Positions 1-21,825 of a DNA stretch of 64,000 bases are shown piece after piece (within the stretch, counting starts at the first letter, position 1; the number at the start of each line of letters is the position of its first letter). The stretch comes from an uncultured Patescibacteria group bacterium (lineage in GTDB: Bacteria; Patescibacteriota; Microgenomatia; UBA1400; PJMF01). Below the pieces are notes generated by a model. That model was given only the letters and a program-made list of their open reading frames with translations, had not been told where the DNA came from and did no database searches. The stretch is from positions 5,573 through 69,572 of the forward strand of contig CAJQIG010000002.1 of assembly GCA_905478415.1 (NCBI GenBank), written 5' to 3'. A program made the translations under genes and the position numbers.

Positions 1-1005
1 TTTGACCTTACATTTGTACCGGCAATCACTGGTCCCGAAGTTGAAAAAGCTGTGGAGGCTCTAGTTCCTGGCCAATTTCTTTTACTAGAAAACCTGCGAT
101 TTGATCCCAGCGAAAAGAAAAACCTGGCTCCGTTTGCAAAATCACTCGCACAACTCGCTGATGTCTATATTAATGATGCCTTTTCAACTGCCCACAGGTC
201 TCACGCTTCAACGACTGGAATTACCGAATATATACCTGCCTATGCCGGATTAGCTCTCCAAAAAGAAGTTGAAACCCTTTCTGAACTGACCGAAAACCCT
301 CAAAAACCCCTAGTTGTGGTACTTGGTGGTGCGAAAATTTCTGATAAAGTTGCAGCCGCAGAGAAACTGCTCACTATTGCTGATATTGTGCTTGTTGGAG
401 GTGCAGTAGCAAACAGTTTCCTCAAGGCAGAAGGACTTGAAATTCATAAATCTTTTATTGAAGATGCTTCAGCTGACCTCAAAAAACAAAATATTAACTA
501 CACTACAGTAGCTCGAGACCTGATGGAAGCCCACCGAACAGAAAAAATGCTTCTTAAAGGCTATATCCCGCTTCCAAAAATAATTTATCCTGTTGATGTT
601 ATCGCTGCGCCGTCACTCGATACCCACAAAAAAACCGATGTACAAATACTCGACCTCACTAAAGATATGGCAGATACTCCGAACGATAAAGATCTTTTAT
701 ACCTAGATATCGGTCCAAAAACCATGCATTTATATGCTGAAATTCTAAAACAAGCTCAAACAGTTTTCTGGAATGGCCCCATGGGGGTCTGGGAAAACCC
801 ACTCTTCGCTGCTGGTTCTACCCTCATTGGCAAAGCAATTGGGAAAGTACCTCACTCAATTATTGGTGGAGGCGATACTATTTCATGTGTACGCCATTTC
901 AAACTCGAGAAAACATACACCTATGTATCTGCAGCGGGCGGAGCTGCTCTCGCTTTTTTAGGTGGAGAACAGCTGCCAGGCTTACTACCACTCACTAAAA
1001 AGTAG
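1..1005 (+). CDS. pgk: Phosphoglycerate kinase, C-terminal portion (5' end lies outside the window)
   Basis: Frame 1 is open from base 1. The translation FDPSEKKNLAPFAKSLAQLADVYINDAFSTAHRSHAST...GGGDT matches conserved PGK hinge and C-domain motifs. The track's GTG at 52 is internal. Confidence 0.85.
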   Translation, partial: FDLTFVPAITGPEVEKAVEALVPGQFLLLENLRFDPSEKKNLAPFAKSLAQLADVYINDAFSTAHRSHASTTGITEYIPAYAGLALQKEVETLSELTENPQKPLVVVLGGAKISDKVAAAEKLLTIADIVLVGGAVANSFLKAEGLEIHKSFIEDASADLKKQNINYTTVARDLMEAHRTEKMLLKGYIPLPKIIYPVDVIAAPSLDTHKKTDVQILDLTKDMADTPNDKDLLYLDIGPKTMHLYAEILKQAQTVFWNGPMGVWENPLFAAGSTLIGKAIGKVPHSIIGGGDTISCVRHFKLEKTYTYVSAAGGAALAFLGGEQLPGLLPLTKK

Positions 1006-1055: not shown

Positions 1056-2963
1056 ATGTATAAGCTGTTTTTTGTGCCTTCTTTGGCACTCAGAAAGCCA
1101 ACACACATGATTAGCGCATCAACAGACACACCAGCCACACCAACAGAAAACCAACCAGTTATGGCAACTACGCCTGTTAATAACGCTCCAACCCCTCCTA
1201 GAGCACCTCAAAAGACTAGTAGTCTTCCTTTGAAAATGATTCTGGGAATTGCATTGTTACTTCTACTTGTTTTAGGAAGTGGCGTTGGACTCTATCTTTC
1301 ACAACAAAGTCAAAATATTCGTCCTCAAGCAGCAATAGCCTGTGGAAACATTACTTGTAAAGATGGCAGAACAGCAGGCTCTGACTGTAGTGCTCCTCAA
1401 TCTAGCTGTGAAAAACGCGCTGAAGAATTCTGTGGAGTTGGAAATGTTCAAAGTACTAGCTCTAACCCTTCTTCGTGTGATGGAGGTAGTTCTTCAAGCT
1501 GTGCATATCCATACTGCGATGCTACTTGCGGTGATACAAGTTGTTCAGTTTCTTGTCAATCAGGAACAAGCTGTACAACTGGTAAAAATACATTCGTTTG
1601 TAGCGGAAAAAGTGGTTCTGGTTGTAATGAAGCAATGGGCAGTTATCTTCCAGCTCTTTCAAATAACTCTGGTAGTGTTGGTACTATTACTGAAGAAAAA
1701 TGGTGTACGACTATTCAACTTGACGCTTGGGCTAAAAATTCAGGCGGCAGTGCACAAGAAACCGCTGCTCGAGTCGTCTATATTGGTGATAATGGAGCTG
1801 TTTGTGTTGAAGGCACTGGCTGTAACCCTGACGACTTAGACTGGGACTGTTCAAAAACTCCTCCTGCTGGAACCTACACTTCTGCTTGTTCCCCTGCTAC
1901 TCAAACAGTTGGTAACTTAAGCTATCAGCTTAAAATCACCGGTACGCAACCTAAAGATGTAGGAGAAGTTGTCTTTTTCCTTGGATTTTATGGTAAATAC
2001 TATAACAAAGAGCTTACAGATGGTTTCTTAGGCAAACCAACTTGGTCAGTGACTTCTTGTCAGGCAAGTGTTGAAGGACCTGATAAATGGTGTGGATACT
2101 GGTTGAAACAAGTAAGTGACCCAAATCGTACTGCTGGTGGAGACACTATTACTTGGACCTGGGATGGATCTTTCAAACAACCAGCTCTTGATAACAAAAC
2201 TATTAATGAAATTGCCACAAAAATTGCAGCCATGAAAGCTGCAGGCACATTAGCCGCAGACTATAAAGTCCCTGTTCACGTCGAGTACCGACTACCCGAT
2301 GGATCTAGATATTCAGAAATGGGCACCCAATTCTTAGATATTTCTCCATACGCTTGTGCTCCTAAACCAAGCCCAACGCCGACACCTACTCCTACGCCAA
2401 CCCCGACCCCTACTCCGACGCCTACCCCTACCCCAACGCCTACACCTACTCCAACCCCAGGAGTGACTCCAACGCCGACGCCGACACCTACCCCGACACC
2501 GACACCAACGCCAACGCCGACACCTACCCCAATTGGCCCAATGTGTATGTCTATCACAATGCAAACACCTGCTGGCCAGCCAGTCAGAACCCCTAATGTC
2601 GGAAATACGGTACAGTTTACATGTGGACAAGTTGCTGGTGTAACTGATTACCAATTCAGAGTCATCACTCCAAGCCTAGCAGCAGTCACTGTCGAATCAT
2701 CTGGAAACATCTCTGTCCCTTATACAATAGAGGAGTTTGGAAGATACTATGCTCAGTGCAGAATCTGTCCAACAACTGGAGATGGAGTCCTCTGCCAAGA
2801 TTGGGAACCAGTTCCGGTAGTGTTCGAAGACACAGTTCAACAGTTGGGTGCTCCTCCAAGATCAGAAGTTATGAGTCGCGAATCAGAAACAATTCAACCG
2901 GTCATTGATGAAATACCAGAGAGAACTCAGTCAGATCGCTCACTAGATGTAATGACAAGATAG
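1056..2963 (+). CDS. Membrane-anchored or secreted cysteine-rich surface protein with a long PT linker; paralogous to the N-terminal half of 4530-7040
   Basis: N-terminal hydrophobic helix [26 protein letters not shown] is near-identical to residues ~95-125 of the 4530-7040 product. A Cys-rich module ([23 protein letters not shown]...) and a ~55-residue (PT)n linker are present. No LPXTG at the C-terminus. Start is uncertain (an alternative ATG lies at ~1107). Confidence 0.6.
2366..2532 (+). repeat. Imperfect hexanucleotide (CCNACN)n repeat encoding a PT linker
   Basis: The run ccaacgccgacacctactcctacgccaaccccgacccctact... is directly visible. Its reverse complement generates the spurious GV-repeat ORF 2276-2557. 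Confidence 0.9.
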
Positions 2964-2985
2964 AAACTAACAACATAGTACAAAA

Positions 2986-4503
2986 ATGGAAACACAAAAC
3001 AACCAAACACCAGCATTCTATACAAAAACTCCAAATGAGAATTCTGGAGCAATGAATACTGGTACACCAAACCAGCCTCCTTCAAGAAAACCTATTACTA
3101 GGTCCAAATCGAAGTATGTCATGGCGATACTAGCTGTCTTCCTTTTTGTCATCGTTGGTGCTGCAGGAATTTTAATTTCCCAGCGACAGCGACAAGTTGC
3201 TGGCCCGGTAGCTCCAACAGCTCCAGAGTCAAAACCAAAAGCAGCTCGAGAAATCGAAGAAAGCTGTACGCTTGTCTTTGATGTTCCCGAACCAACTCCA
3301 ACACCAAGCCCAACCCCTACTCCAGTTCCTAGTGATAAAGCTAAATGTATTAGTAAAGAAACATACTACGCTGCTGAAGCTACTTCATCAGCAAGAGTAG
3401 TTGCTGATGCAGCTATGGTCGATCCAAAAGCCCCTCTTCCAGTGGGCACGGTACTTGAATACAGAATTACCGTTCGATCCCAAGGTACTACCACTGGTGA
3501 AGTCAATGTTATTGATACTTTGCCCGATGCAGTTGCATTTATCCCAGATGCAGATGCAAATACTCCAGATTGGATTGTTGATGACGAAGGTCGATTAACA
3601 ACAAACCTTGGAGTTCTAGAAGCAGGCGAACAGGTACTAAAAATAGTTGTCAGAGTAATTAAAGAATCTGCCGGCTTAAGTGGAACAGGTCTCACTTTCA
3701 AAAATCAGGTAGCTGTCACTACAGAACCAAGTACTACAACTGGCCGCGTTCACATGAGTGAGTGTGAAGTCACTAATGTTCTTCCAGAACCAACTCCTAG
3801 CCCAACGCCGACCCCTACTCCAACCCCCACACCGACGCCAACACCAACACCTACCCCTACGCCTGATGTAACTCCTACACCAACGCCAACCCCAACACCA
3901 GGAGTAACACCAACGCCTACGCCAGTCGTGTACTCATGTGGTAGCGTCTGTGAAACTGATGATCAGTGCCAGACTGGTAACGCAAGTCACTTCTGTAGTA
4001 ATGAGTTCGGCAACACTTGCAGACTCTACAGCAATCCATCAGATGCCAATTGTGAACCTGTGGTTGAAACCTATGCTTGTAACAGTACTTGCTCAACTGA
4101 TGAACAATGCTACACAGCCAATCCAAACTATGTCTGTAATGAAGGAGCCTGTCGCTTAGCTGAAAATACAGCTGCCACAAACTGTCTCCCCGTAGCCTAT
4201 GTTCCACCAGCTCCAGCTGTTGGCTGCAATGAAGTTTGTGAAACCAACGCTGACTGTAGCCAGGTTGACCATATCTGCTACACCACGGCTGACGGCACAA
4301 ACCGCTGTAGAACTGAAGAATACGTAAACAGCTCAACCTGTTCTGCTCCTCCTGCAACACAAACTGTCTATACAACTGTTGCTCAAGTACAGCCAGAATT
4401 ACCAGCTGAACTACCAAAGACAGGTGCATTCGACCTAGCTAACTGGCTCAAAGCAGGACTGGTCACACTTGGACTTGGAGCTGCACTCTTACTCTTGTTA
4501 TAA
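2986..4503 (+). CDS. LPXTG cell-wall-anchored surface protein with a DUF11-like repeat domain, PT linkers and three 6-Cys modules; paralogous to the C-terminal half of 4530-7040
   Basis: C-terminal LPKTG followed by a hydrophobic stretch ([26 protein letters not shown]) is a sortase sorting signal. An N-terminal TM helix is present. The segment [30 protein letters not shown] resembles a DUF11/conserved repeat domain. Three modules of the form C-x3-C-x5-C-x7-8-C-x6-8-C-x9-C are present. Confidence 0.7.
3787..3925 (+). repeat. PT-linker-encoding (CCNACN)n repeat
   Basis: The run ccaactcctagcccaacgccgacccctactccaacccccacaccgacgccaacaccaacacct is directly visible. Confidence 0.85.
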
Positions 4504-4529
4504 AAATAGTACTTTAGAGAAGTAGAACT

Positions 4530-7040
4530 ATGATCAACGCATCAGGCATCGGAACGAACACGACACCAACTCCTCAGGGAATTCCTCCAATGCCAGGTGT
4601 TAATGGTCCTACACCCCCCTCCTTCAATCTCAACCAAGCTAACATCCCCAAAGAAAAGGCTAAAGCTGAAATAGCCAAGCCCGTTTCACCAGTAGCAGGT
4701 CAGCCGGCAGGTGCTCCAGTAACTGGACCCAAATTTCCAGATGCTGCAAAAGCTCCTATAACCACTTCTAATAATGGTGGTAACTCGCACCGTAAGAGAA
4801 AAGGCTCATTGAAAATTATCATTGGGGCTATTCTTTTATTCATTCTCGTATTAGGTAGTGGCGTCGGGTTATATCTTTCACAACAGAGTCAAGATATCGC
4901 TCCTCAGGCTGCTATTGTTTGTGGAAGTATTACCTGTACTGATGGCCGTAGTGCTGGCTCGGACTGCAGTGCTCCTCAGGCTGACTGTCAGCAACGTGCT
5001 AGAGAATTTTGTGGCAGCGATGAACAAGTCGCAAGTAAAGGTACAAAACCAGAATGGTGTGGCGGTGGTGGTGATACTTGCGCAACTTCAGACTGTCGTG
5101 GAACCTGTAATAACAACCCTTCTTGTAGTTTAACTGGTAACTGCAGTAAATGCAGTGGAACTGAAAAAGGAACTAAAACCTTCTACTGTGAAGGTAAAAG
5201 TGGCTCTGGTTGTAACGATGCTATGGGTAGCTATATGCCAGAATTTTCAAATCAATCTGGAAGTCTTGGTACTATTACTAAGGAAAAATGGTGCACTACT
5301 GTTCAGCTAGACGCTTTTGGCCCCGCTGGAAGTGATGCTCGAGTCGTCTACATCGGTAATAATGGACAAGTCTGTGTCGAAGGTAAATGTGATGACTACA
5401 AGAATGCTGAATTTTGGAACTGTGATCCACCAGCTTCTCCAACTCCTCCAGCTGGAACCTACACTTCTGCTTGTGCTCCTGCTACTCAGACTGTTGGTAA
5501 CTTAAGTTACAACCTTAAGATTACCGGAACTCAACCAGCAGATCTTGGACCTGTAGTTTTCTTCCTCGGATTTTACGGTAAATACTATAATAAAGAATTA
5601 ACTGATGGTTTTCTAGGTAAACCAACCTGGTCTGATACCTGCCAAGCAGGTATTGAAGGCGAAAGTAAATGGTGTGGATATTGGCTAAAACAAGTCAGTG
5701 ATCCAAACCCTGCTGCTGGTGGTGACACTATCTCCTGGACATGGGATGGCACCCATAAACAACCAGCCATTGACAACAAAACCATCAACGAAATTGCCAC
5801 AAAAATTGCAGCTATGAAAGCTGCAGGCACATTAGCCGCAGACTATAAAGTCCCTGTTCATGTCGAGTACCGACTACCTGATGGAACAAAATACAAAGGC
5901 ATGGGTACCCAATTCTTAGATATCACTCCTAGTGCTTGTGCTCCCGAGCCAAGCCCAACACCTAAGGCTGACCCCAGTCCTACGCCACTGGTCACACCAA
6001 CACCTACTCCGACACCAAGTCCAACGCCAACCCCTACCCCAGAGCCTGGTACCGCAGCTTGTGTGTGGAAACGTGCCTACACCAGTTACCGTGGTGACAC
6101 TGATGCGGCCCGATTGACTGTGGCTGACACCATTAATCCCGGAGATGAGTTTTTCTATCGAACTCGAATCACAGCTAGTACAACAGGTGTCATTGGTGCT
6201 GTTTCTCTCTTAGATGTACTACCAACTGGTATCACCTATGTGCCTGACGCACATAACACAACTGGAATTGAGTATAATGAGGCCGACAACTCTATTTCAA
6301 TGAGTTATGACACTCTTACTGACTACAAAGTCGTCAATTTCAAAGTTATGGTTAACGAGGATGTCGCAGATCAGACTACTATTGCTAACACAGCAATAAT
6401 CACCAATAGTAATAAAGCTTTGGAAGTCAGTGAATGTTCGACCGACATACTTATCTCAGATATTCCTCCAGAACCAACATACGAATGTAACTCACCATGT
6501 AGTGATGACTCCCAATGTCAGACAGCAAACGCCGAATACACTTGTAGTGTTGAAGATGGCAATGTCTGCCGACTCGACAGCAATAGAGCAGATGATATGT
6601 GTCAACCAAAGCCACTCACCTATTCTTGTAACTCTAGTTGTGAAACTGACACCGAATGTCAGACAGCGAATGAGAACTACATTTGTCAACCAGACGAGAA
6701 ACTCTGTCGCTTAGTTAGTAATCCGGACGAATCTAACTGTACAAATCCAGTAGCACCTTCCCCATCTCCAGCAATTGGCTGTAATGAAGAATGTTCTACA
6801 AACGCTGACTGTTCAAACAGTAACCACATCTGCTACACGACACCTGAAGGAACTAACCTCTGCAGATTAGAGAGCTACCTCAACAGCTCAAGTTGTACTG
6901 AACCAGTCGTACAAACAATCGTTGTGCAACCAGAGCTTCCACCGGAGCTACCTCAAACTGGCCCAACTAACTGGCTCAACTGGATCAAGACTGGATTCGT
7001 AACTCTGGGAGTTGGAGCAATCTTACTACTACTACTTTAA
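4530..7040 (+). CDS. Large LPXTG-anchored modular surface protein (836 aa); its architecture equals 1056-2963 plus 2986-4503 fused
   Basis: Pro-rich N-terminus, a TM helix, a Cys-rich module homologous to the 1056 product (MGSYMPEFSNQSGSLGTITKEKWCTTVQLDAF), a PT linker, a DUF11-like domain, three 6-Cys modules, then LPQTG plus a hydrophobic tail. Confidence 0.7.
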   Translation: MINASGIGTNTTPTPQGIPPMPGVNGPTPPSFNLNQANIPKEKAKAEIAKPVSPVAGQPAGAPVTGPKFPDAAKAPITTSNNGGNSHRKRKGSLKIIIGAILLFILVLGSGVGLYLSQQSQDIAPQAAIVCGSITCTDGRSAGSDCSAPQADCQQRAREFCGSDEQVASKGTKPEWCGGGGDTCATSDCRGTCNNNPSCSLTGNCSKCSGTEKGTKTFYCEGKSGSGCNDAMGSYMPEFSNQSGSLGTITKEKWCTTVQLDAFGPAGSDARVVYIGNNGQVCVEGKCDDYKNAEFWNCDPPASPTPPAGTYTSACAPATQTVGNLSYNLKITGTQPADLGPVVFFLGFYGKYYNKELTDGFLGKPTWSDTCQAGIEGESKWCGYWLKQVSDPNPAAGGDTISWTWDGTHKQPAIDNKTINEIATKIAAMKAAGTLAADYKVPVHVEYRLPDGTKYKGMGTQFLDITPSACAPEPSPTPKADPSPTPLVTPTPTPTPSPTPTPTPEPGTAACVWKRAYTSYRGDTDAARLTVADTINPGDEFFYRTRITASTTGVIGAVSLLDVLPTGITYVPDAHNTTGIEYNEADNSISMSYDTLTDYKVVNFKVMVNEDVADQTTIANTAIITNSNKALEVSECSTDILISDIPPEPTYECNSPCSDDSQCQTANAEYTCSVEDGNVCRLDSNRADDMCQPKPLTYSCNSSCETDTECQTANENYICQPDEKLCRLVSNPDESNCTNPVAPSPSPAIGCNEECSTNADCSNSNHICYTTPEGTNLCRLESYLNSSSCTEPVVQTIVVQPELPPELPQTGPTNWLNWIKTGFVTLGVGAILLLLL

Positions 7041-7070
7041 ACAGAGTTCACCTATTGAAATAAAGATATG

Positions 7071-7091
7071 AGCCAGGTAAGTTGCCTGGCT
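7071..7091. terminator. Candidate bidirectional hairpin terminator between convergent genes
   Basis: agccagg-taagttg-cctggct is a 7-bp stem. The T-rich tract is on the minus-strand side only. Confidence 0.35.
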
Positions 7092-7122
7092 CATTGTAGT
7101 TAAGCAGCTCTAGCTAGGAGCG

Positions 7123-8127
7123 TTAGTTTACCTGATCAACTGACCTGTACACAGCTTCAGAAATCTCTTTGATTGTTTCTCTCAGCTCAACCATATCAGT
7201 TCCTTTGGACATCACACACAAAATATATGGCTTTTCTGGGTAGTAGATAACTCCGCAATCATGTAATTGTTTTTCTTCTATACCAACCTTACTGAGAATT
7301 CCAAATTTATGTGCAATAACAACTCCTTCTGGCAAACCAGCCACAAGACCATCCTTAAAATCTGCTTGGCTTAAGGTAAAAAGCAGATACTCTGAATTTT
7401 GCCTATAAAGGTATGAGGAATTGTACAAAACTCTAAAGAGAGAAGCATATTGTTTGACAGAAACAAAATCTTGAGGAGTTTCTTTGTACGCTAATGGAAT
7501 ACCTAGGTCACGATGCGTTTTAACCAAGTATTTTTCAGGCACGTCAGTTGCAAGCAATCGATAAGCAATGTTGTCAGAAAGAGTTAAAGCCCTCTCGATC
7601 AGTTGCTTTGCCGTATACGACTCACCCACAACCAAATCATCTTCAGGCTTCAAGTTTGACTCTAACTCCTCTGAATACACGATCTTCTTTAGAAGAGTGC
7701 TTGGCTCATTTTCAAAATACTTCATGTAGGCTATTGCAGTGGGGACTTTTAACAGGCTCTGAGGAGCAAACGTAGCTTCCTCATTGTATCCATACCAAGG
7801 ACCATTTGATAAATCACGATAATAAACACTAATCGTTTCTTCTGAGTTAGCTTCCACAACCTTCTCTACCGCTTCACTCATACTCTTCAGACTCGTATAT
7901 CCTTGATTATTTGTCTGCTCACACTCTAAGAGTGGATTTATAAAGGTAAATCCTGCTTCTCTTTTTTCGATGGAAAAATTTTCGTTCACCTTTGGCAGGA
8001 TTTTTGTTTTTTCTATCAGAGGTGATACAAAAATACCTAAAAAAAAGGTGGTTGATGCAGCTGTTACGGTTAGTAACAAAGTTTTTGCTGTAGGCATGTG
8101 TTTGAATAAAAAAAGTGAGTAGTACAA
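7123..8127 (-). CDS. Class-A beta-lactamase-like serine hydrolase (secreted or membrane-anchored)
   Basis: N-terminal hydrophobic segment. The SxxK-like FAPQSLLKV, the SDN loop LTLSDNIAYRLL and the KTG-like AHKFG occur in class-A order and spacing. Confidence 0.55.
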   Translation of the reverse strand: MYYSLFLFKHMPTAKTLLLTVTAASTTFFLGIFVSPLIEKTKILPKVNENFSIEKREAGFTFINPLLECEQTNNQGYTSLKSMSEAVEKVVEANSEETISVYYRDLSNGPWYGYNEEATFAPQSLLKVPTAIAYMKYFENEPSTLLKKIVYSEELESNLKPEDDLVVGESYTAKQLIERALTLSDNIAYRLLATDVPEKYLVKTHRDLGIPLAYKETPQDFVSVKQYASLFRVLYNSSYLYRQNSEYLLFTLSQADFKDGLVAGLPEGVVIAHKFGILSKVGIEEKQLHDCGVIYYPEKPYILCVMSKGTDMVELRETIKEISEAVYRSVDQVN

Positions 8128-8397: not shown

Positions 8398-9729
8398 ATG
8401 GAGAAGCTCATGCCATTATCGATACAAAGTATTCATCAAAAATTTCAGGCATTACAATCAGGGAGAGTTCAATCTCCCCAATATATTCTCTTTCCTGCTG
8501 CAACCCTAAAAATAACTCTCAATTCTGAGTGTACGATTGCTTGTGATGGATGTTTTCATCAATCAAGCAATGAACCATTTAAAAGGTTCTTAGAAACTCG
8601 AAAACTGAGTGTTGAGCAAATGAAAGAACTTATCCTGGAAGCTCAAGTTGAATTTGGAGTTCCTCTAGTTGAATTTTCAGGAGGCGAACCGACCCTAGAC
8701 CGGAAAGCACTGTTAGAACTTATTGCTTTCTGTACTGGGCTTGGAATTAAAACCCGCCTGATTACCAACGGATCTCTAGTTGGAGGTGAAGGAACATACA
8801 AAGAAAGTTTGCGCCCCTATCTCTCACCAGATTTAAAAAATCTGTCTGGCATTCAATATGCCCAAGAATTAAAATTAGCTAGACTAACTTCTGTAATTGT
8901 AAGTATAGATGTCATGCATACCTCTTCGCAGGAAGAACATGCGCTCAGCACATTGCAGCTGCATAACAAAGTGCCTGTCACCATTGTAGGTTTAGCAATT
9001 CGGAATCTCATGTCTGTTGGTTTTGGATTTGAACCAGAAGAAAATGCGGGTAGAGCTAATAAAACACTCCGCATTGGCGTCACAGCTGCAGGAGATGATT
9101 ACAAGCCCTCCTTTGAGCTGGTCAAAACAGCTCTTGGACTTGCAGCGTCAGACTGGGAAGATTTACTCCCTGTTGCTGATGCCAAAACGTACCGTGTTGT
9201 TCAAAGGAAAAGTGGTCAGAGAGTTTACATCCACAGAAATCAAACTGCAGATATTGGATTCGGAAAAACGCTTCCAATAAATCGACTGAGAGGACCACTG
9301 GGAGAAACTGTCTATGACAGAATGTGTTACCACTTTGCAGGGCCCATCGGTAGCGACGGTGGCCCAAATGGTGAACTTTTTGTTGATAATACGGGATATG
9401 TGTATACCTGCCCCATGGGTTCCTACAGGATCGGAAGTGTCCATACACATACGCTTGCAGGAATTGTTGGCTATGTAAATGCTGGCACACCACCCAAAGA
9501 ATACGAAGTTGGAGTTGGTATGTTTCGAATGCTCAAGATGATTGGGTACTTAACCGAGTACTCCAATTCAATGGGCCTGGCATACCAAATTCTGGTGCAC
9601 ATGGATCCCTCGCTTGTGGAAGAAATTGAAAGCCAACGCTCCCACTCGGGGGCCTGTCATACCCTTGGACACAGCAAAAAGTACTTGGATATGCTGACCC
9701 ACTTTTTTGAGAATGAATTGATAGAATAA
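8398..9729 (+). CDS. Radical SAM domain protein of unknown specificity
   Basis: CTIACDGC is the CxxxCxxC cluster. The glycine-rich SAM motif VEFSGGEPTL follows. Only three further Cys, so no SPASM or twitch domain. A long AT-rich intergenic region lies upstream. Confidence 0.7.
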   Translation: MEKLMPLSIQSIHQKFQALQSGRVQSPQYILFPAATLKITLNSECTIACDGCFHQSSNEPFKRFLETRKLSVEQMKELILEAQVEFGVPLVEFSGGEPTLDRKALLELIAFCTGLGIKTRLITNGSLVGGEGTYKESLRPYLSPDLKNLSGIQYAQELKLARLTSVIVSIDVMHTSSQEEHALSTLQLHNKVPVTIVGLAIRNLMSVGFGFEPEENAGRANKTLRIGVTAAGDDYKPSFELVKTALGLAASDWEDLLPVADAKTYRVVQRKSGQRVYIHRNQTADIGFGKTLPINRLRGPLGETVYDRMCYHFAGPIGSDGGPNGELFVDNTGYVYTCPMGSYRIGSVHTHTLAGIVGYVNAGTPPKEYEVGVGMFRMLKMIGYLTEYSNSMGLAYQILVHMDPSLVEEIESQRSHSGACHTLGHSKKYLDMLTHFFENELIE

Positions 9730-9760: not shown

Positions 9761-9766
9761 ACAGTG

Positions 9767-9839
9767 TGAGCCGAGAGGGACTTGAACCCCCGACCAGTAA
9801 GGTATAAGCTTACCGCTCTACCAGCTGAGCTATCGGCTC
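9767..9839 (-). tRNA. tRNA with anticodon UAU (Ile, decoding AUA)
   Basis: Hand-folded cloverleaf on the minus strand: acceptor GAGCCGA/TCGGCTC; U8; D-arm GCTC-AGCTGGTA-GAGC; anticodon stem GTAAG/CTTAC with loop C-U-UAU-A-C; variable loop TGGTC; T-arm GGGGG-TTCAAGT-CCCTC; discriminator A. No encoded CCA. Confidence 0.75.
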
Positions 9840-12940: not shown

Positions 12941-13333
12941 ATGGGAAAGATAAAAACACTTTTTGGCACACTTGGATTACTGGGAGTTGTGGTAGTTGGA
13001 GGCTATTTCTACTCCAAGAACTCCAACTCATTACTGGCAAAAAAAATAGCTCCGCTTGTCGAAATAGTTGCTCCTACCATCGAAAAAGCCCCCTCACTTG
13101 CACAAGAAATAAAACTCCCAGAAGATGGCCTAGCAGAGGTCAGTACCCTCACAGAGCGTGGCAAAGAACTGACAGAGCATGTGGGAACCGTACTTGGAGA
13201 AAGTGTGGCTGAAGTTGACGCTGAAAAACAACCGCTACATGAAAGAGCCATTGAATATGGACAGTACTTATACTGTAAGGGAATTGTTGAGGAGTACGAG
13301 AGGACTCAACAAATCAAGACCACAGAAAACTAG
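12941..13333 (+). CDS. Small N-terminally membrane-anchored hypothetical protein (intact copy of a duplicated gene)
   Basis: MGKIKTLFGTLGLLGVVVVGGYFY is the anchor. The remainder is acidic and helical. A near-identical DNA copy occurs 817 bp downstream. Confidence 0.5.
   Translation: MGKIKTLFGTLGLLGVVVVGGYFYSKNSNSLLAKKIAPLVEIVAPTIEKAPSLAQEIKLPEDGLAEVSTLTERGKELTEHVGTVLGESVAEVDAEKQPLHERAIEYGQYLYCKGIVEEYERTQQIKTTEN
12957..13301 (+). repeat. Direct repeat copy 1 (345 bp, ~97% identical to 13774-14118)
   Basis: Manual base-by-base comparison; constant offset of 817 bp; about ten mismatches. Confidence 0.9.
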
Positions 13334-13731
13334 TTTTCAACAACTTGTTGTGCTCTGGAAATATGCATTTTTACGATAAAAGCATTAGGGCTAGTAGTAT
13401 CTGTTTCCAAAAAGTATCTAATTTGCCAACCACCCGCCGTTACTTTAAGATCAGTATCTCTTTCAAAAAAATCTCCTTCAGGTATATGAAACATTGTATT
13501 TAGTCCGTTAAATATTCCACCCAAAGAATCGCGTGCTTGCTCCCAAATTGATCGCACATCAGATTCTGAATGAAGATCGTTTTCTAGCAGTGCTTGAAGA
13601 GGAATCGCTATCATTTTCCCTCTTACTTCTAGTTGTTGTTGAGTTAATTCTTTTACTTGAGTTAATTCTTTTTGAGTTGGTACTTTTATATTAAACATTC
13701 GATCAGCAAAAGATGAATATGATTCTCCCAT
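13330..13731 (-). CDS. Hypothetical protein encoded between the two direct-repeat copies
   Basis: 133-aa ORF on the opposite strand in an AT-rich spacer. It has an internal KELTQ duplication and no recognisable motif. Confidence 0.4.
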   Translation of the reverse strand: MGESYSSFADRMFNIKVPTQKELTQVKELTQQQLEVRGKMIAIPLQALLENDLHSESDVRSIWEQARDSLGGIFNGLNTMFHIPEGDFFERDTDLKVTAGGWQIRYFLETDTTSPNAFIVKMHISRAQQVVEN

Positions 13732-13773: not shown

Positions 13774-14118
13774 CACTTTTTGGCACACTTGGATTACTGG
13801 GAGTTGTGGTAGTTGGAGGCTATTTCTATTCCAAGAACTCCAACTCATTACTGGCAAAAAAAATAGCTCCGCTTGTCGAAATAGTTGCTCCTACCATCGA
13901 AAAAGCCCCCTCACTTGCACAAGAAATAAAACTCCCAGAAGATGGCCTAGCAGAGGTCAGTACCCTCACAGAGCGTGGCAAAGAACTCACTGAACATGTG
14001 GGAACCGTACTTGGAGAAAGTGTGGCTGAAGTCGACGCTGAAAAACAACCCCTGCACGAAAGAGCTATGGAATATGGACAGTACTTATACTGTAAGGGAA
14101 TTGTTGAGGAGTACGAGA
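13774..14118 (+). repeat. Direct repeat copy 2
   Basis: See copy 1. Confidence 0.9.
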
Positions 14119-14144
14119 CAACTAATTCAAAAATAGCAGACTAA
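13806..14144 (+). pseudogene. 5'-truncated duplicate of the 12941-13333 gene (lacks the N-terminal anchor; in-frame TAG upstream)
   Basis: The sequence upstream reads atgatggcatcaTAG. The ORF can only start at an internal GTG. The C-terminus diverges from the first copy (TTNSKIAD vs RTQQIKTTEN). Confidence 0.45.
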
Positions 14145-17359: not shown

Positions 17360-19711
17360 TTACAAATTCGACCGACTCGTAATCTCAGCCTGCACCACAT
17401 CCACATCTTTTCCATACTTGAGCCGAGATAACTGTTTAATCATATCTGCCTGTTTTGGGTTCATACGAGCTTCAATAGCAGCCATATCTTTCATCAATGA
17501 CATACTAAATGGCGGCACTGGCTCATTCTTTACGATTGTCTTTACATAGACATGATACTTTTCGATGTTTGTGAGATCTCCTTCGTTAAAAGTTGGCGCA
17601 AACTCATGCTGCAAAAAGTTTGCATCAGGAACACCGACGCGGAACGAAACCATAGTACCAACGTTACCAAAAACAGCATTCTTAACTTCTTCGTCAATCT
17701 GACTGACAAACTGATTGGCCACAATCAAGTTGAGACGATACTTGCGAGCCTCTGAAAGAATGACCGCAAAATCTTCGGTAGCATAATTCTGGAACTCATC
17801 AACATACAGGAAGAAGTCTTTACGATCGTGCATCGGAATGTCCTGACGAGACATAGCAGCAGTCAGTACTTTTGGAACTAAAATCAGTCCCAAAAACTTA
17901 GCGTCTTCCTCTCCTAGTACACCTTTTGAAAGGTTGCAGAGAATAATTTTTTGTTCATCCATAGCTTTACGAAAATTAAACGAACTTTCTGGCTGACCAA
18001 TAATATTACGCATGGTTTTGTTAGTCACAAACCGACCAAACTTAGAAACAATGTAATCCAAAACTTCGGACTTGTGGAAGTCAGAGGTTTGAGCCATCTG
18101 ATCAGTCCAGTACCGACGCACCACTGGATCTTTTACAAGCGGTAGCATTTCGTCAATATACTTTTGATCGGTTAAAATACGCACCAACTCAATAAAAGTA
18201 GTGCCTTTTTTGTACATAATAGTCAACATAGCATTACGAATAGCGTGCTCAAACCGAGGACCAATGATACCAGTGCGGTGCGGGTCATACAGTTTATACA
18301 TCAAACCAATAATTGATCCCACCACAAAGTGACGTTGCTCTTCGCTATCCGCCTCCATCATATTCAGACCCATTGGACGACTAAGGTCAGAAGGGTTGAA
18401 GTAAATGACATCGTCGGCACGTTCTGGAGGCATGAGTTGTAAGATATCTTCGATAAATTCTCCATGTGGGTCGACAGCACAAACACCATTGCCATTTTCA
18501 ATATCCTGCAGGATCATTTCTTTCAAAAACTCTGACTTACCAGTACCAGTCTTTCCAATAATGTACATATGCCGTCTACGGTCATCATCACCAATGTATA
18601 CTTCTCTCGATTCTCCTCTGTACTGAGACTTACCCAGTCTGAGTCCCTTGGTTGGAATATTGTGAGGAGCCGGAGCATGTTTAGCGTTCAGCCATCTGAT
18701 AAAGTGAGTTTCGATCATTTTACTTGGCAGATGGAACATGGTAGCTAATTCTTCGGAATTAAGAATCATTGTGTTCCGATTAAAAAGAGGCATGTAGCGA
18801 TACAAAAAGTCGATCATGAACAAGTGTTTCAAAAATACTCGTCCTTTTTTAATATTATTGTAGGCACTGCTGAATTGAGCAAAAGCTCCCAAAATGTTAT
18901 TAATGTGAGAGTCAGCAGAGTTTTCATCTGGAGAAGAAACAACAACTCTCAGAGCCACTGTGAAACCTACTTTTTCTGCTTTTGTGGTAATCGCCTCCAT
19001 CTCTTTTGGATCATGGTTGTACGAAGCTTTTTCTGGATCTGCTTCACGCTTTTTCTGCTTCTGTACGTACGATCGACCTTGATCCTGCCATTTTTTTGAT
19101 GCTGGCTGGAGCAAGATCTGCACAACAGCTCCTTCTCCTGGGCCCATCTTTGCAAGCGCAGAAGTAATCAACGATAATCCATCAGTTGGTAAATCTTTAT
19201 ATGGTTTCAGCGGTAAGTACTTGGCACGATCAAACGTCAGCGAAGCAAATGAAACTTTTCCTTTTTCACTGAAAATATTTATTTCGTCAACTTCCTTGAT
19301 ATCTGCGTTTGGATAAGCACCATGAACCTGCTTTTCGACGAAATCTCTAATTCCTCTGGAACAACTAACGTAAAAAGCAATTTCTTCTTTAAGTGCCACA
19401 ATCTCAAACGAGATAATATCGTCCGTCTTTAAAAAGGAAGTAACTCCCCTGCTTTTAAGCGCATAGAGGGCTGCAAACATTTGTTCGGCAGCATCAATTT
19501 TCGTTTCATTGTCTTTTGGTACTCTAATCATGAGCGTTACAAAGCTCAGCGCATACTTTTCACGATTACGATGCTTAAACCACTGCAGACCCATGTAGGC
19601 AAACACTCCAAGAATGATCCATAGAAAGAGCATGGCAAACAGCGCAGCTGTCACCGCTATGAGTTGTTGTAAAACTGTATTTGGATCCATTGCGTTTCCT
19701 CTAAAAGACAA
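17360..19711 (-). CDS. Type IV secretion ATPase, VirB4/TrbE/CagE-like (FtsK-HerA superfamily); a VirD4-type coupling protein is less likely
   Basis: N-terminal TM helix. Walker A IIGKTGTGKSEF sits at ~residue 385 of 783, which is VirB4-like placement. A VDPHGEF motif and Walker B FFLYVDEFQNYAT are present. Confidence 0.6.
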   Translation of the reverse strand: MSFRGNAMDPNTVLQQLIAVTAALFAMLFLWIILGVFAYMGLQWFKHRNREKYALSFVTLMIRVPKDNETKIDAAEQMFAALYALKSRGVTSFLKTDDIISFEIVALKEEIAFYVSCSRGIRDFVEKQVHGAYPNADIKEVDEINIFSEKGKVSFASLTFDRAKYLPLKPYKDLPTDGLSLITSALAKMGPGEGAVVQILLQPASKKWQDQGRSYVQKQKKREADPEKASYNHDPKEMEAITTKAEKVGFTVALRVVVSSPDENSADSHINNILGAFAQFSSAYNNIKKGRVFLKHLFMIDFLYRYMPLFNRNTMILNSEELATMFHLPSKMIETHFIRWLNAKHAPAPHNIPTKGLRLGKSQYRGESREVYIGDDDRRRHMYIIGKTGTGKSEFLKEMILQDIENGNGVCAVDPHGEFIEDILQLMPPERADDVIYFNPSDLSRPMGLNMMEADSEEQRHFVVGSIIGLMYKLYDPHRTGIIGPRFEHAIRNAMLTIMYKKGTTFIELVRILTDQKYIDEMLPLVKDPVVRRYWTDQMAQTSDFHKSEVLDYIVSKFGRFVTNKTMRNIIGQPESSFNFRKAMDEQKIILCNLSKGVLGEEDAKFLGLILVPKVLTAAMSRQDIPMHDRKDFFLYVDEFQNYATEDFAVILSEARKYRLNLIVANQFVSQIDEEVKNAVFGNVGTMVSFRVGVPDANFLQHEFAPTFNEGDLTNIEKYHVYVKTIVKNEPVPPFSMSLMKDMAAIEARMNPKQADMIKQLSRLKYGKDVDVVQAEITSRSNL

Positions 19712-20549: not shown

Positions 20550-21053
20550 TCAGTAATTACAGATAGTGCCGGGCACAATGCCAAGTTCAGCAGCTTTGCC
20601 AGCAGGAAGCTCTAGTACTCTATTGACTGGCTCTGATGGTGAATACGTTGGCAGCGCTTTCTGTTCTGGTTTTGGTTTTGGTACAGATGCTGAAATATCG
20701 ACAACTGTGTCATCATTCAACCACACAATATCAATATCGAACTTCATATCAGGCATCCAAAATCGTGGGGTTCTAAGCTCCGGAAATATAAAAAGCATGC
20801 CATCAGCTCCAATTTCCTCTCTGCCACTGAGTCCTTGGGTTGTGCTTTCTGGTGAGGTAACGACTTCCACCTCAAGTGGAATGGTTCCAACCATAATAGT
20901 TCGTCGCTCTCGATCTGTAAATGAAGTATCTACTTTACTCAAAGCTGCTTGCTGTGCCGCCATAGGAACTCCATTCTGTGTTTTATTAATCCAAAAGAAG
21001 ATGGTCAACAAAGAAAGTACTGCTAAACTACTAATCACTATTTTTTGCTTCAT
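20550..21053 (-). CDS. DUF192 family protein (secreted)
   Basis: Signal-like MKQKIVISSLAVLSLLTIFF. MLFIF...FWM...DIDIVWL matches the DUF192 core. Confidence 0.6.
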   Translation of the reverse strand: MKQKIVISSLAVLSLLTIFFWINKTQNGVPMAAQQAALSKVDTSFTDRERRTIMVGTIPLEVEVVTSPESTTQGLSGREEIGADGMLFIFPELRTPRFWMPDMKFDIDIVWLNDDTVVDISASVPKPKPEQKALPTYSPSEPVNRVLELPAGKAAELGIVPGTICNY

Positions 21054-21825
21054 ATACATTCCATTTGTAATTAAAAAACATCCATACTCCAAGTAGTATC
21101 AATAAAATAAGTTGATTTATTCCTAACATACCAAGTACTTGCGGCTTGTCTATTCGTAGAAAATCAAGCAAAAATCGAAATCCGGCGTAAAAACCAACCA
21201 GACTAAAAATAAAGGCTCCTGATCCCAATTTCCATGATTTCTGCTTTTTCCAAAGAAAGATACCAAACGCGACCATACCCAGAGCTTCATACAAAAAGAG
21301 AGGATGATACCGCTCGATGTTCTCAAAGTTAGGTAGACGATGTGTTGCTTCAATAAAAATACCCCAGGGAAGACTTGTTGGCCGCCCATACAACTCCTGG
21401 TTAATATAGTTGCCCCACCGACCAATAGCTTGTCCAAAAGGAAACCCTATGGCCGCACTATCCAAGAGAGCCCTGACTGGAATTTGAGAAAATTTCTTTT
21501 TTTGAAGAAAAAAGATAGTTATGCCTCCAAACAACAAACCACCTAGAATACTGAGACCACCATTCCAAATAGAAAAAATTGCCCTCCAATTATCAATGTA
21601 CAAATAGTAGTCGGTAACCACATGCCACAGTCGAGCTCCAAGAATACTCACTACAAGTACACCACCCGCAGCAGTATAAAATGATGATTCACTAATCGAA
21701 AACTTGTCTTTCAACCGAGAATAAGTAATCTGCAATCCGGTACTAATTGCAATTCCAAGGATGAGTCCATACAGATGAAACGTCACACCAGCTACTGTAA
21801 ATTCTGAAATCATATTAAAAAACAA
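21031..21825 (-). CDS. lgt: Prolipoprotein diacylglyceryl transferase
   Basis: Lgt signature GRWGNYINQELYG and a polytopic membrane profile. Confidence 0.85.
   Translation of the reverse strand: MFFNMISEFTVAGVTFHLYGLILGIAISTGLQITYSRLKDKFSISESSFYTAAGGVLVVSILGARLWHVVTDYYLYIDNWRAIFSIWNGGLSILGGLLFGGITIFFLQKKKFSQIPVRALLDSAAIGFPFGQAIGRWGNYINQELYGRPTSLPWGIFIEATHRLPNFENIERYHPLFLYEALGMVAFGIFLWKKQKSWKLGSGAFIFSLVGFYAGFRFLLDFLRIDKPQVLGMLGINQLILLILLGVWMFFNYKWNVYEAKNSD

What the first reader, a model, noticed from the sequence alone, without database searches (positions are those of the whole stretch)
1056..7040. Tandem triad of modular surface proteins showing a gene fission or fusion: ORF A (635 aa) plus ORF B (505 aa) equals ORF C (836 aa)
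ORF C (4530-7040) carries, in order: an N-terminal TM helix, a Cys-rich globular module, a PT linker, a DUF11-like domain, three 6-Cys modules, and LPQTG. The two genes immediately upstream reproduce this order split in two. ORF A carries TM, the Cys-rich module (near-identical stretches such as [16 protein letters not shown] and [14 protein letters not shown]) and the PT linker. ORF B carries TM, PT, DUF11-like, three 6-Cys modules and LPKTG. This is a direct snapshot of domain fission or fusion in adhesin-like sortase substrates. In an epibiotic or surface-attached small-genome bacterium they are prime host-attachment candidates. Only ORF B and ORF C would be covalently wall-anchored; ORF A may be retained by its TM helix or released.
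Basis: seen in the sequence. Interest (0 to 1): 0.65.

Follow-up and report, generated by a model that had tools for sequence, protein, structure and literature searches.

The report
Mosaic surface-protein gene trio beside pgk
Three neighbouring genes in a tiny-genome (Patescibacteria) bacterium encode modular cell-surface proteins, and the third is an old hybrid of the first two whose "head" is repeatedly copied between genes 1 and 3 – a familiar way for adhesin families to evolve, seen here in a little-studied lineage, not a fresh gene split or fusion.

Summary
The three ORFs are real. Similarity lies in globular modules, not only PT linkers: A58-442 matches C90-478 at 63% identity, and B119-505 matches C509-836 at 37%. 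"A+B=C" is inexact. A also carries a C-terminal FN3-like module and tail that C lacks, and B has its own conserved leader.

Comparative data replace the "snapshot of fission or fusion" reading:
- pgk→A→B is a conserved pair in about 20 related Patescibacteria (Microgenomates/Pacebacteria-like) loci.
- C, with an A-type leader and head and a B-type stalk and anchor, occurs in only nine related genomes.
- So fission is excluded, and C is an old chimeric paralogue.

Heads cluster by genome, not by gene. A/C DNA identity within a genome ranges from 72% in this window (dS≈1.1) to about 100%, with mosaic identity profiles. Three genomes share no head, and unrelated head types occur between genomes. 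This is recurrent gene conversion or segment replacement, bounded by the conserved TM segment and the PT linker.

B and C look like sortase-type fibrillar surface proteins. Their CLIPPER/DUF11 domain has an invariant Lys/Asp/Asn triad. Their LPxTG signal is atypical because it lacks a basic tail. No sortase lies in the window; the closest relative has one beside its C gene. Function is inferred only.

The parts
52..1005 (+). 3' part of pgk (phosphoglycerate kinase), the conserved upstream neighbour of the locus
   Evidence: PGK HMM E=1e-198. pgk precedes the A-type gene in about 20 related loci.
1056..2963 (+). Gene A (635 aa; the true start is probably ATG 1107, giving MISAS...). Order of parts: Pro-rich cytoplasmic leader, TM, Cys-rich region, module 1b, PT linker, FN3-like tail module, acidic tail. 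No sorting signal.
1230..1298 (+). A: TM segment with the conserved juxtamembrane motif ([23 protein letters not shown])
   Evidence: A/C-leader HMM E=2e-23; motif conserved in all A- and C-type homologues.
1266..2446 (+). A: segment homologous to C (TM through the start of the PT linker), 72% DNA identity to 4845-6040
   Evidence: blastn; dS≈1.08 and dN≈0.22.
1845..2363 (+). A: module 1b, an Ig/FN3-like beta-sandwich with two helices; no Pfam family
2208..2278 (+). A: local high-identity patch with C (identical runs of 23 and 47 nt), a candidate recent gene-conversion tract
   Evidence: Longest-run permutation test P<1e-4 for all sites and P=0.02 for third codon positions.
2364..2531 (+). A: PT linker encoded by imperfect 6/18-nt repeats
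2532..2825 (+). A: C-terminal 4-Cys FN3-like module (MCMSITM...[16 protein letters not shown]...CRIC), absent from C
2986..4503 (+). Gene B (505 aa). Order of parts: own conserved leader and TM, short PT linker, CLIPPER/DUF11, PT linker, three 6-Cys modules, LPKTG signal.
3334..3771 (+). B: CLIPPER/DUF11 domain with candidate isopeptide triad K124/D177/N240 and flanking C121/C260
   Evidence: TIGR01451 28.2 bits, above the cut-off of 24. Residues invariant in 43 family domains. Triad as in PMC12617251.
3925..4347 (+). B: three 6-Cys spacer modules
4393..4500 (+). B: C-terminal sorting signal, [12 protein letters not shown]...[20 protein letters not shown]
4530..7040 (+). Gene C (836 aa), a chimeric paralogue. 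Order of parts: A-type leader and TM, Cys-rich region, module 1b, PT linker, CLIPPER/DUF11, three 6-Cys modules, LPQTG signal.
4845..6040 (+). C: segment homologous to A (TM through the PT linker)
5790..5860 (+). C: counterpart of the local high-identity patch (2208-2278)
6051..6449 (+). C: CLIPPER/DUF11 domain with K514/D562/N620 and flanking C511/C636
6477..6905 (+). C: three 6-Cys spacer modules
6930..7037 (+). C: C-terminal sorting signal, QPELPPELPQTG...NWIKTGFVTLGVGAILLLLL
7068..7094 (.). 10-bp-stem hairpin between C and the convergent beta-lactamase-like gene. It is the only strong terminator-like element; none lies between A, B and C on the + strand.

Best explanation
The locus is a conserved, probably co-transcribed cluster of modular cell-surface protein genes next to pgk, in a Patescibacteria (Microgenomates/Pacebacteria-like) genome.

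Evolution.
- A and B are an old gene pair. A is a membrane-anchored or released protein with a variable head and an FN3-like C-terminal module. B is a head-less stalk: CLIPPER domain, disulfide-rich 6-Cys spacers and an LPxTG-type signal.
- C is a third, chimeric paralogue. It joins an A-type leader, TM segment and head to a B-type stalk and anchor.
- It most likely arose by duplication and recombination in the PT-linker-coding repeats that sit at the junction in all three genes (inferred).
- C arose before this genome, L001/L019, L002 and L005 diverged.
- Since then, the segment between the conserved TM/juxtamembrane motif and the PT linker (the head) has been exchanged repeatedly between A and C by non-reciprocal recombination (gene conversion). 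Over longer times it has been replaced by unrelated head modules.
- In this window the last extensive homogenisation is old (dS≈1.1). Only short patches look more recent.

Function (inferred).
- B and C are exported through their N-terminal TM signal.
- A sortase encoded elsewhere in the genome then cleaves at LPxTG and links them to the wall.
- The CLIPPER domain, probably locked by a Lys-Asn isopeptide bond, and the 6-Cys modules form a rigid, protease-resistant stalk.
- C displays the head at the end of that stalk. A displays the same kind of head without a wall anchor.
- The ligand is unknown. Binding to a host cell or to a surface is the obvious candidate.
For: Shown.
- Module-level homology in globular parts.
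- pgk-A-B-C synteny in L001, L002, L005 and L019, with B-C also in L006. Arrangements containing a C-type gene in L024, L027 and L038.
- pgk-A-B without C in at least 8 more distant loci.
- C's leader hits the A/C-leader model (E=3e-24) and not the B-leader model.
- C stalks and B stalks form sister clades, with the outgroup B-types outside them.
- Heads cluster by genome. Within-genome A/C DNA identity is 73% (window) and 88% (L001), against 58-60% for every cross-genome pair.
- A/C shared tracts: 92.6% over 759 bp in L002, where the head has one synonymous difference in 186 codons; 96% over 659 bp in L019; 95.6% over 545 bp in L024; 78% in L006; none in L005, L027 or L038.
- Mosaic identity within tracts. 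L001 ranges from 63% to 100% along the tract. In the window pS falls from about 0.7 to 0.22-0.29 in one patch, and the run test gives P<1e-4.
- Tracts begin at the TM motif and end in the PT linker in the window, L001 and L002.
- A and B share DNA similarity only in the PT-coding repeats.
- The K/D/N triad and a Cys pair are invariant in 43 family CLIPPER domains, matching the crystallographic triad in PMC12617251.
- The extended C-terminal signal is conserved.
- A sortase gene lies 1 kb downstream of C' in L001, and its homologues are common in Patescibacteria.
- Gaps between the genes are short, and the only terminator-like hairpin follows C.
Against: - Monophyly of the C-containing genomes appears in the full-data PGK NJ tree but has only 119/300 bootstrap support, so a single origin of C is tentative.
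- C-type genes in the L024/L027 group lack a CLIPPER domain and may not be orthologous to this C.
- L006 B and C stalks pair with each other in the stalk tree, so stalks may also be converted or duplicated independently.
- No sortase is in the 64-kb window.
- The sorting signal lacks the basic tail, and it scores below the TIGR01167 cut-off in B (10.6 vs 15.9 bits); TIGR01167 is not listed for C at E ≤ 1.
- Pfam DUF11 scores are below the gathering threshold.
- Nothing identifies a ligand. Both modelled modules are generic beta-sandwiches.
- Whether the N-terminal TM segment is cleaved is unknown.
Confidence: 0.68

Rival explanations
1. One reading: the trio is a direct, recent snapshot of one event. 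Either a C-like gene split into A and B (fission), or A and B have just fused into C.
For: The module order of C equals the A head followed by the B stalk. The genes are adjacent and co-oriented.
Against: Against fission.
- A and B each have a complete leader and TM segment and their own C-terminal modules.
- The A+B pair occurs without C in at least 8 more distant loci.

Against a recent event.
- The trio is conserved in genomes whose PGK is 68-79% identical.
- A/C dS is about 1.1 in the window.
- B and C are only 37-44% identical, whereas B orthologues are 58-68% identical.
Confidence: 0.05
2. There is no gene conversion. The A/C similarity in each genome comes from independent, lineage-specific duplications of a head into both genes, or from strong purifying selection on a shared binding function.
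For: - Head types differ between genomes, and three genomes have non-matching heads.
- In the window most of the head is saturated at synonymous sites, so selection alone could explain the 63% protein identity there.
Against: - Near-zero synonymous divergence over hundreds of bp in L002, L001, L019 and L024 cannot be due to selection on the protein.
- Tracts are bounded by conserved flanks, while the leader and stalk outside them stay orthologous.
- Identity is mosaic within tracts.
- Inserting a copied head segment into a pre-existing paralogue is itself non-reciprocal recombination, so the distinction is largely semantic.
Confidence: 0.12
3. The genes encode subunits of a sortase-assembled heteromeric pilus, with B as shaft or base pilin, C as tip adhesin and A as an accessory protein.
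For: - NCBI names the C orthologue P0001 an 'isopeptide-forming domain-containing fimbrial protein'.
- B and C have CnaA-like CLIPPER domains and LPxTG.
- A sortase lies beside the cluster in L001.
Against: - No YPK(N) pilin motif and no E-box in B or C, or in their orthologues.
- There is a single CLIPPER domain per protein here.
- The N-terminal Lys in B's juxtamembrane region is not conserved in outgroup B-types.
- No sortase lies beside the cluster in this genome.
Confidence: 0.1
4. It is a programmed antigenic- or phase-variation system, in which A serves as a donor cassette that frequently rewrites the head of the expressed adhesin C.
For: - Non-reciprocal exchange between A and C heads is evident.
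- L020 may be an A/C recombinant.
Against: - The 5,985-bp trio is identical (0-1 mismatch) in three samples.
- A is a full-length gene with its own start, leader and C-terminal module. It sits in the same probable operon and is not a silent cassette.
- There is only one possible donor.
- In the window the two copies have diverged to dS≈1.1.
Confidence: 0.04

Closest known systems
Fibrillar adhesins with CLIPPER (DUF11, PF01345) stalk domains (PMC12617251)
   Same: - The overall layout is an N-terminal export signal, a distal non-stalk head, an Ig-like CnaA-type stalk domain and a C-terminal sorting signal.
- The Lys/Asp/Asn triad is conserved in the order found in the 9IFR structure.
   Different: - There is only one CLIPPER domain per protein here, rather than long tandem arrays.
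- The stalk is extended by PT linkers and by 6-Cys modules that match no Pfam family.
- Pfam scores are below the gathering threshold.
- The head modules match no Pfam or NCBIfam family.
LPXTG cell-wall-anchored sortase substrates of Gram-positive bacteria (TIGR01167)
   Same: An LP[KQ]TG pentapeptide is followed by a hydrophobic segment at the extreme C-terminus. Sortase genes are present in relatives.
   Different: - There is no positively charged tail.
- The signal is an extended, family-specific motif (QPxLPxELPxTG..W..W[LI]K[AT]G...LLLLL).
- It scores below the HMM cut-off.
- The N-terminus is a 40-90-aa Pro-rich cytoplasmic segment plus TM helix, not a short signal peptide.
Moraxella catarrhalis UspA2H, a hybrid adhesin made by recombination between uspA1 and uspA2 (PMC3458076)
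   Same: A third form combines the N-terminal head-type region of one paralogue with the C-terminal stalk and anchor of another.
   Different: - UspA proteins are trimeric autotransporters of a diderm bacterium.
- UspA2H is a strain-variable allele replacing uspA2. It is not an extra gene fixed in tandem beside both parents.
Helicobacter pylori babA/babB/babC paralogues, homogenised and made chimeric by gene conversion (PMC4552749)
   Same: Adhesin paralogues have conserved ends and a variable middle, and non-reciprocal recombination moves the variable segment between loci.
   Different: - The bab genes are dispersed outer-membrane-protein loci, and switching happens within infections.
- Here the paralogues are tandem, differ in their whole C-terminal half, and show no variation between samples.

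Membership tests
LPXTG sortase substrate (cell-wall sorting signal) | LPXTG pentapeptide near the C-terminus | tested here: met
   LPKTG in B and LPQTG in C, 29-31 residues from the end. These are the only two such ORFs in the window.
LPXTG sortase substrate (cell-wall sorting signal) | Hydrophobic segment followed by a positively charged tail | tested here: not met
   The hydrophobic segment is present. The proteins end in LLLLL, and the only Lys lies before the hydrophobic stretch. This is conserved in 13 family members.
LPXTG sortase substrate (cell-wall sorting signal) | Score at or above the TIGR01167 cut-off | tested here: not met
   B scores 10.6 bits against a cut-off of 15.9. C is not listed at E≤1.
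LPXTG sortase substrate (cell-wall sorting signal) | A cognate sortase encoded in the genome | tested here: inconclusive
   - None is in the 64-kb window: no TLxTC motif, tblastn E≥0.2 with the L001 sortase, and Pfam scans of 20 neighbouring proteins find none.
- A PF04203 sortase lies 1 kb downstream of C' in L001.
- The rest of this genome could not be read.
LPXTG sortase substrate (cell-wall sorting signal) | Cleavable N-terminal signal peptide | not testable with these tools
   A TM helix with positive-inside flanks is present, but it is preceded by 40-93 residues, and the following motif (..RQQA / ..PQAA) is not a canonical AxA site. No signal-peptide predictor was available.
CLIPPER / DUF11 (PF01345, TIGR01451) | Profile score at or above the curated cut-off | tested here: inconclusive
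   - Pfam: B 22.6 and C 18.6 bits against a gathering score of 24.6, so not met.
- TIGR01451: B 28.2, above the cut-off of 24 (met); C 18.2 (not met).
- Several orthologues carry precomputed PF01345 hits, e.g. P0002 and the B-types of L006 and L007.
CLIPPER / DUF11 (PF01345, TIGR01451) | Lys (first strand), catalytic Asp and Asn (late strand) for the intramolecular isopeptide bond | tested here: met
   K514/D562/N620 in C and K124/D177/N240 in B. Lys is 98% conserved; Asp and Asn are 100% conserved in 43 family domains. The order matches Lys715/Asp748/Asn806 of 9IFR. The bond itself was not tested.
Sortase-assembled pilins | Pilin motif (YPKN Lys) and E-box | tested here: not met
   No YPK and no E[TS]xAP in B, C or the B orthologues of L001 and L002. 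The C orthologues have no YPK; single PK[ND] or E[TS]xAP matches occur only at residues 40-41, in the cytoplasmic leader.
Gene fission/fusion composite ('Rosetta stone') gene | The composite aligns end to end with two separate component genes, and the components carry nothing else | tested here: not met
   C's two halves match A and B. However, A has an extra FN3-like module and tail, B has its own leader and TM segment, and C's own 89-aa leader matches neither.
Gene fission/fusion composite ('Rosetta stone') gene | Polarity: the components are ancestral (fusion) or the composite is ancestral (fission) | tested here: met
   The result favours fusion-type chimera formation. A+B occur without C in outgroup loci, and no locus has C without A or B except the ambiguous L020. 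Support for a single origin is weak, at 119/300 bootstraps.
Tandem paralogues under gene conversion (concerted evolution) | Paralogous segments cluster by genome rather than by gene | tested here: met
   Within-genome identity is 73% and 88%, against 58-60% across genomes. L002 A and C share a head type unrelated to the window's.
Tandem paralogues under gene conversion (concerted evolution) | Discrete tracts with near-zero synonymous divergence and mosaic identity | tested here: met
   - L002 has one synonymous difference in 186 codons.
- L001 has about 900 bp at 99-100%, next to stretches at 63-80%.
- In the window pS drops to 0.22-0.29 in one patch, and the run test gives P<1e-4 for all sites and P=0.02 for third positions.

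The most novel reading that the evidence does not exclude
The matching of A and C heads is functional, not just a by-product of recombination. On this reading the lineage runs a dedicated two-format display system.
- The same rapidly replaceable binding head is shown once on a covalently wall-anchored, isopeptide-locked stalk (C).
- It is shown again on a membrane-tethered or released protein (A), whose Pro-rich cytoplasmic tail could couple ligand binding to the cell interior.
- Selection favours gene conversion that keeps the two heads matched.
- The conserved N-terminal motif ([19 protein letters not shown]) and the tail-less LPxTG signal would then define a Patescibacteria-specific sorting pathway for host-contact proteins.
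Probability: 0.12. Interest if true: 0.7.

Novelty: new variant of a known kind. Interest (0 to 1): 0.45.

Why it matters
Patescibacteria (CPR) are mostly uncultured and are thought to live attached to other cells, and very little is known about the molecules that mediate contact.

- **A trackable locus.** This cluster is conserved and easy to find, always beside pgk in about 20 related loci. It encodes cysteine-rich surface proteins with wall-anchor signals.
- **Evolving heads.** The distal heads change by module replacement and by gene conversion. That marks them as the parts under ecological pressure and makes them good first candidates for host- or surface-binding tests.
- **Unannotated modules.** The locus supplies several modules not matched by the profile libraries searched, which could be turned into profile families:
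  - module 1b
  - the 4-Cys FN3-like tail of A
  - the 6-Cys spacer module
  - two distinct N-terminal leader types
  - a tail-less LPxTG signal
- **Ordinary evolution.** The evolutionary mechanism is a textbook one for adhesin families. The result is useful for this lineage rather than surprising.

Tried and rejected
1. **Sortase in the window.** A TLxTC motif scan, tblastn with the L001 sortase and its neighbour, a sortase HMM and Pfam scans of 20 neighbouring ORFs all found nothing.
2. **Sortase elsewhere in this genome.** I searched with the L001 sortase and looked up the best long-contig candidate, P0060. It belongs to another genome, so the question stays unresolved.
4. **PDB sequence search with B.** It hit only PT-linker low-complexity matches.
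5. **Pfam and NCBIfam on A, B and C.** Beyond DUF11, they gave only PT-repeat noise such as Trypan_PARP, SslE and TonB.
6. **Population variation.** Three samples carry an identical trio, so there is no evidence of switching.
7. **L020 as proof of A/C recombination.** It equals L019 minus exactly 4,000 bp, with the junction inside a ~596-bp identical repeat. Assembly collapse cannot be excluded, so I did not use it as evidence.
8. **Single origin of C from a PGK tree.** The topology agrees, but bootstrap support is only 40%, so I treat it as tentative.
9. **Lineage assignment.** I assumed ORF 54292-57660 was RpoB. It is a conserved hypothetical protein, though its named homologues still place the genome near Ca. 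Pacebacteria and Woesebacteria.
10. **Literature.** A search for Patescibacteria with sortase and LPXTG, or with gene conversion, found no description of this family.

Full report
**1. Observation**

The window holds three co-oriented ORFs: A at 1056-2963 (635 aa), B at 2986-4503 (505 aa) and C at 4530-7040 (836 aa). They lie directly downstream of a pgk gene and are separated by 22 and 26 nt.

- A58-442 aligns with C90-478 at 63% identity (E=0). The alignment covers the TM helix, a Cys-rich region and a ~170-aa globular module.
- B119-505 aligns with C509-836 at 37% identity (E=2e-64). It is weak over the DUF11-like domain and about 56% over the last 190 residues, which hold three 6-Cys modules and the anchor.
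- A and B resemble each other only around the TM helix and, at DNA level, in the PT-coding repeats.
- B and C are the only ORFs in the window with LPxTG near the C-terminus.
- The DUF11 call is borderline. TIGR01451 is above its cut-off for B. Pfam is below its gathering score for both B and C.
- Three independent assemblies from other samples carry the same 5,985 bp with 0-1 mismatch.

**2. Where the equation fails**

- A has a further ~100-aa module (aa 493-590, MCMSITM...[16 protein letters not shown]...CRIC) and a 45-aa acidic tail that C lacks.
- The same module closes many homologues, namely P0004, P0008-P0011, P0014 and P0015, and the A-type gene of nearly every related locus.
- B has its own conserved cytoplasmic leader and TM segment (AFYTKTP...[17 protein letters not shown]), which is absent from C.
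- A and B are therefore complete architectures, not halves.

**3. Organism**

- The closest syntenic relative is the MAG HK-STAS-PATE-16. That isolate series consists of Patescibacteria from activated sludge (PMC12239599, PMC8518188).
- Named homologues of a neighbouring 1,122-aa protein and of the relative's sortase come from Ca. Pacebacteria, Ca. Woesebacteria and the Microgenomates group.
- The window genome occurs on contigs of up to 658 kb.

**4. Comparative genomics**

- pgk→A-type→B-type is found in about 20 related loci from genomes and metagenomes.
- A third gene with an A/C-type leader and a C-terminal sorting signal follows B only in the window, L001, L002, L005, L006, L019, L022-24, L027 and L038.
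- Loci with at least 2.5 kb of sequence after B and no C include L007, L028, L030, L035, L039, L041, L042 and L045.
- PGK of the window is 79% identical to L001, 73-74% to L002 and L005, and 60-62% to the A+B-only loci L007 and L009.
- In an NJ tree of PGK, all C carriers form one clade, but bootstrap support is only 119/300.
- In a tree of the last 190 residues, C stalks and B stalks of the window group are sister clades, and the B-types of L007 and L010 lie outside.

Fission is thus excluded. C is best read as a chimeric paralogue (A-type front, B-type back) that predates the divergence of at least five genomes. A single origin is likely but not firmly shown.

A PT linker sits exactly at the head/stalk junction in A, B and C, and it is the only DNA shared by A and B. 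This makes recombination in these repeats the likely way the chimera formed, though that step is inferred.

**5. Concerted evolution of the head**

- For the window and L001, which share a head type, A/C DNA identity within a genome is 73% and 88%. All four cross-genome comparisons are 58-60%.
- L002's A and C share a completely different Cys-rich head. It has one synonymous difference in 186 codons.
- L019 has 96% over 659 bp plus 87.5% over 514 bp. L024 has 95.6% over 545 bp. L006 has 78% over the available 217 bp.
- L005, L027 and L038 share nothing beyond short motifs.
- Identity is mosaic. L001 has about 900 bp at 99-100% next to stretches at 63-80%.
- In the window, overall dS≈1.08 and dN≈0.22. 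The proportion of synonymous differences (pS) falls from about 0.7 to 0.22-0.29 over the segment [37 protein letters not shown].
- That patch contains an identical run of 47 nt (2232-2278 = 5814-5860). A permutation test on the longest run gives P<1e-4 for all sites and P=0.02 for third positions.
- In the window, L001 and L002 the shared tract starts at the conserved TM/juxtamembrane motif and ends in the PT linker.

This is the signature of repeated non-reciprocal exchange between A and C, on top of occasional replacement of the head by unrelated modules. In this genome the last large exchange is old.

L020 equals L019 minus exactly 4,000 bp, joined inside a ~596-bp identical A/C tract. It may be a natural unequal-crossover product or an assembly collapse.

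**6. What the proteins are**

- All three have a Pro-rich N-terminal segment, basic residues and one TM helix, which places the rest of the protein outside the cell.
- The CLIPPER/DUF11 domain of B and C retains a Lys, an Asp and an Asn that are invariant or nearly so in 43 family copies, plus a flanking Cys pair.
- These residues are in the same order as the crystallographically defined isopeptide triad of CLIPPER. That CnaA-like stalk domain of fibrillar adhesins confers heat and protease resistance (PMC12617251).
- Three 6-Cys modules follow. They match no Pfam family.
- The C-terminal signal is strongly conserved: QPxLPxELPxTG..W..W[LI]K[AT]GLVTLGxGAxLLLLL. It has no basic tail and scores below the TIGR01167 cut-off.
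- Module 1b of the head is a beta-sandwich with two helices (pLDDT 86.9) and only generic Ig/FN3 matches.
- Module 1b is very rare, with 27 clusters at E ≤ 0.001 among 1.84 billion representative proteins.
- No pilin motif or E-box is present.
- No sortase gene lies in the 64-kb window. In L001 one lies 1 kb downstream of C'.
- The only strong terminator-like hairpin follows C, which is consistent with co-transcription.

**7. Mechanism proposed**

Shown:
- The modular homology.
- The conserved A-B pair.
- C as a chimera limited to a subset of related genomes.
- Head homogenisation between A and C.

Inferred:
- B and C are exported and then linked to the wall by a sortase encoded elsewhere.
- The CLIPPER domain and the 6-Cys modules form a rigid stalk.
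- C holds a variable binding head at the tip of that stalk.
- A presents the same kind of head without a wall anchor, either membrane-tethered or released.
- The ligand is unknown.

**8. Comparison with what is known, and verdict**

- The proteins work like fibrillar adhesins with CLIPPER stalks and like LPXTG proteins. They fail two formal tests for the canonical sorting signal: the basic tail and the HMM cut-off.
- The hybrid gene parallels UspA2H of Moraxella (PMC3458076). The head exchange parallels babA/babB gene conversion in Helicobacter (PMC4552749).
- I found no description of this family in Patescibacteria.

The finding is real. Its interpretation needs correcting, from a fresh fission or fusion to an old chimera plus ongoing concerted evolution. 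The mechanism is a known kind in a new lineage with new modules, so interest is moderate.

Noticed in passing
window 9766-9839 (-): The only tRNA in the window is tRNA-Ile with anticodon TAT, read directly rather than the usual CAT-plus-lysidine route for AUA in bacteria.
   Followed up: no
window 12957-13301 and 13774-14118: A 345-bp direct repeat, about 97% identical. Each copy covers a small + strand ORF (130 aa at 12941-13333; about 112 aa near 13806-14144). Together they flank a 133-aa - strand ORF at 13330-13731.
   Followed up: partly
window 1056-1110: Gene A probably starts at ATG 1107 (MISAS...) rather than 1056. Homologues begin MINA or MISA (a few MVNA), and the 17 upstream codons have no counterpart in them.
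   Followed up: partly
window 1230-1320 and 4809-4900: A strongly conserved motif lies just outside the membrane, [14 protein letters not shown][IL]RQQA, in every A- and C-type protein. B-types have a different conserved leader. This may be a processing or sorting site. It is not a canonical signal-peptidase AxA site.
   Followed up: partly
L020 7565-10300 compared with L019 3565-10300: L020 is L019 minus exactly 4,000 bp. The 5' part of A is joined to the 3' part of C inside a ~596-bp identical tract, and B is lost. This is either a real unequal-crossover deletion or an assembly collapse.
   Followed up: partly
L001 6314-8486: The A-type gene of the closest relative is broken by at least three frameshifts. 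It is either a pseudogene or carries long-read sequencing errors in a repeat that short reads cannot polish.
   Followed up: partly
window 54292-57660 (+): This 1,122-aa ORF follows the ribosomal-protein-sized genes but is not RpoB. It is a conserved hypothetical protein of Ca. Pacebacteria, Woesebacteria and Microgenomates, and some distant homologues carry PF18896.
   Followed up: partly
L003, L004, L005 record titles; P0182, P0193: Several Patescibacteria MAGs, including HK-STAS-PATE-16, are labelled 'Pseudomonadales bacterium' in the public records. This looks like a taxonomy mislabel.
   Followed up: partly
L001 13287-14661; L014-L018: In several genomes the sortase gene is preceded by a ~270-aa gene whose 3' end overlaps the sortase start. 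The L001 copy is rich in PS/PT repeats and ends in ...YAETG, then a hydrophobic stretch, then KKQEK. It may be a dedicated substrate.
   Followed up: no
L045 5311-9345: A different arrangement in a distant relative: two short genes with an A/C-type leader and a sorting signal lie between pgk and the A-B pair.
   Followed up: no
window 17360-19711 (-), 21031-21825 (-): Downstream synteny with L007 continues: MFP-ABC-FtsX transporter genes, a DUF87/TrwB-type ATPase and Lgt. The genes between C and the transporter, a beta-lactamase-like gene at 7123-8127 and a radical-SAM gene at 8398-9729, are absent there.
   Followed up: no
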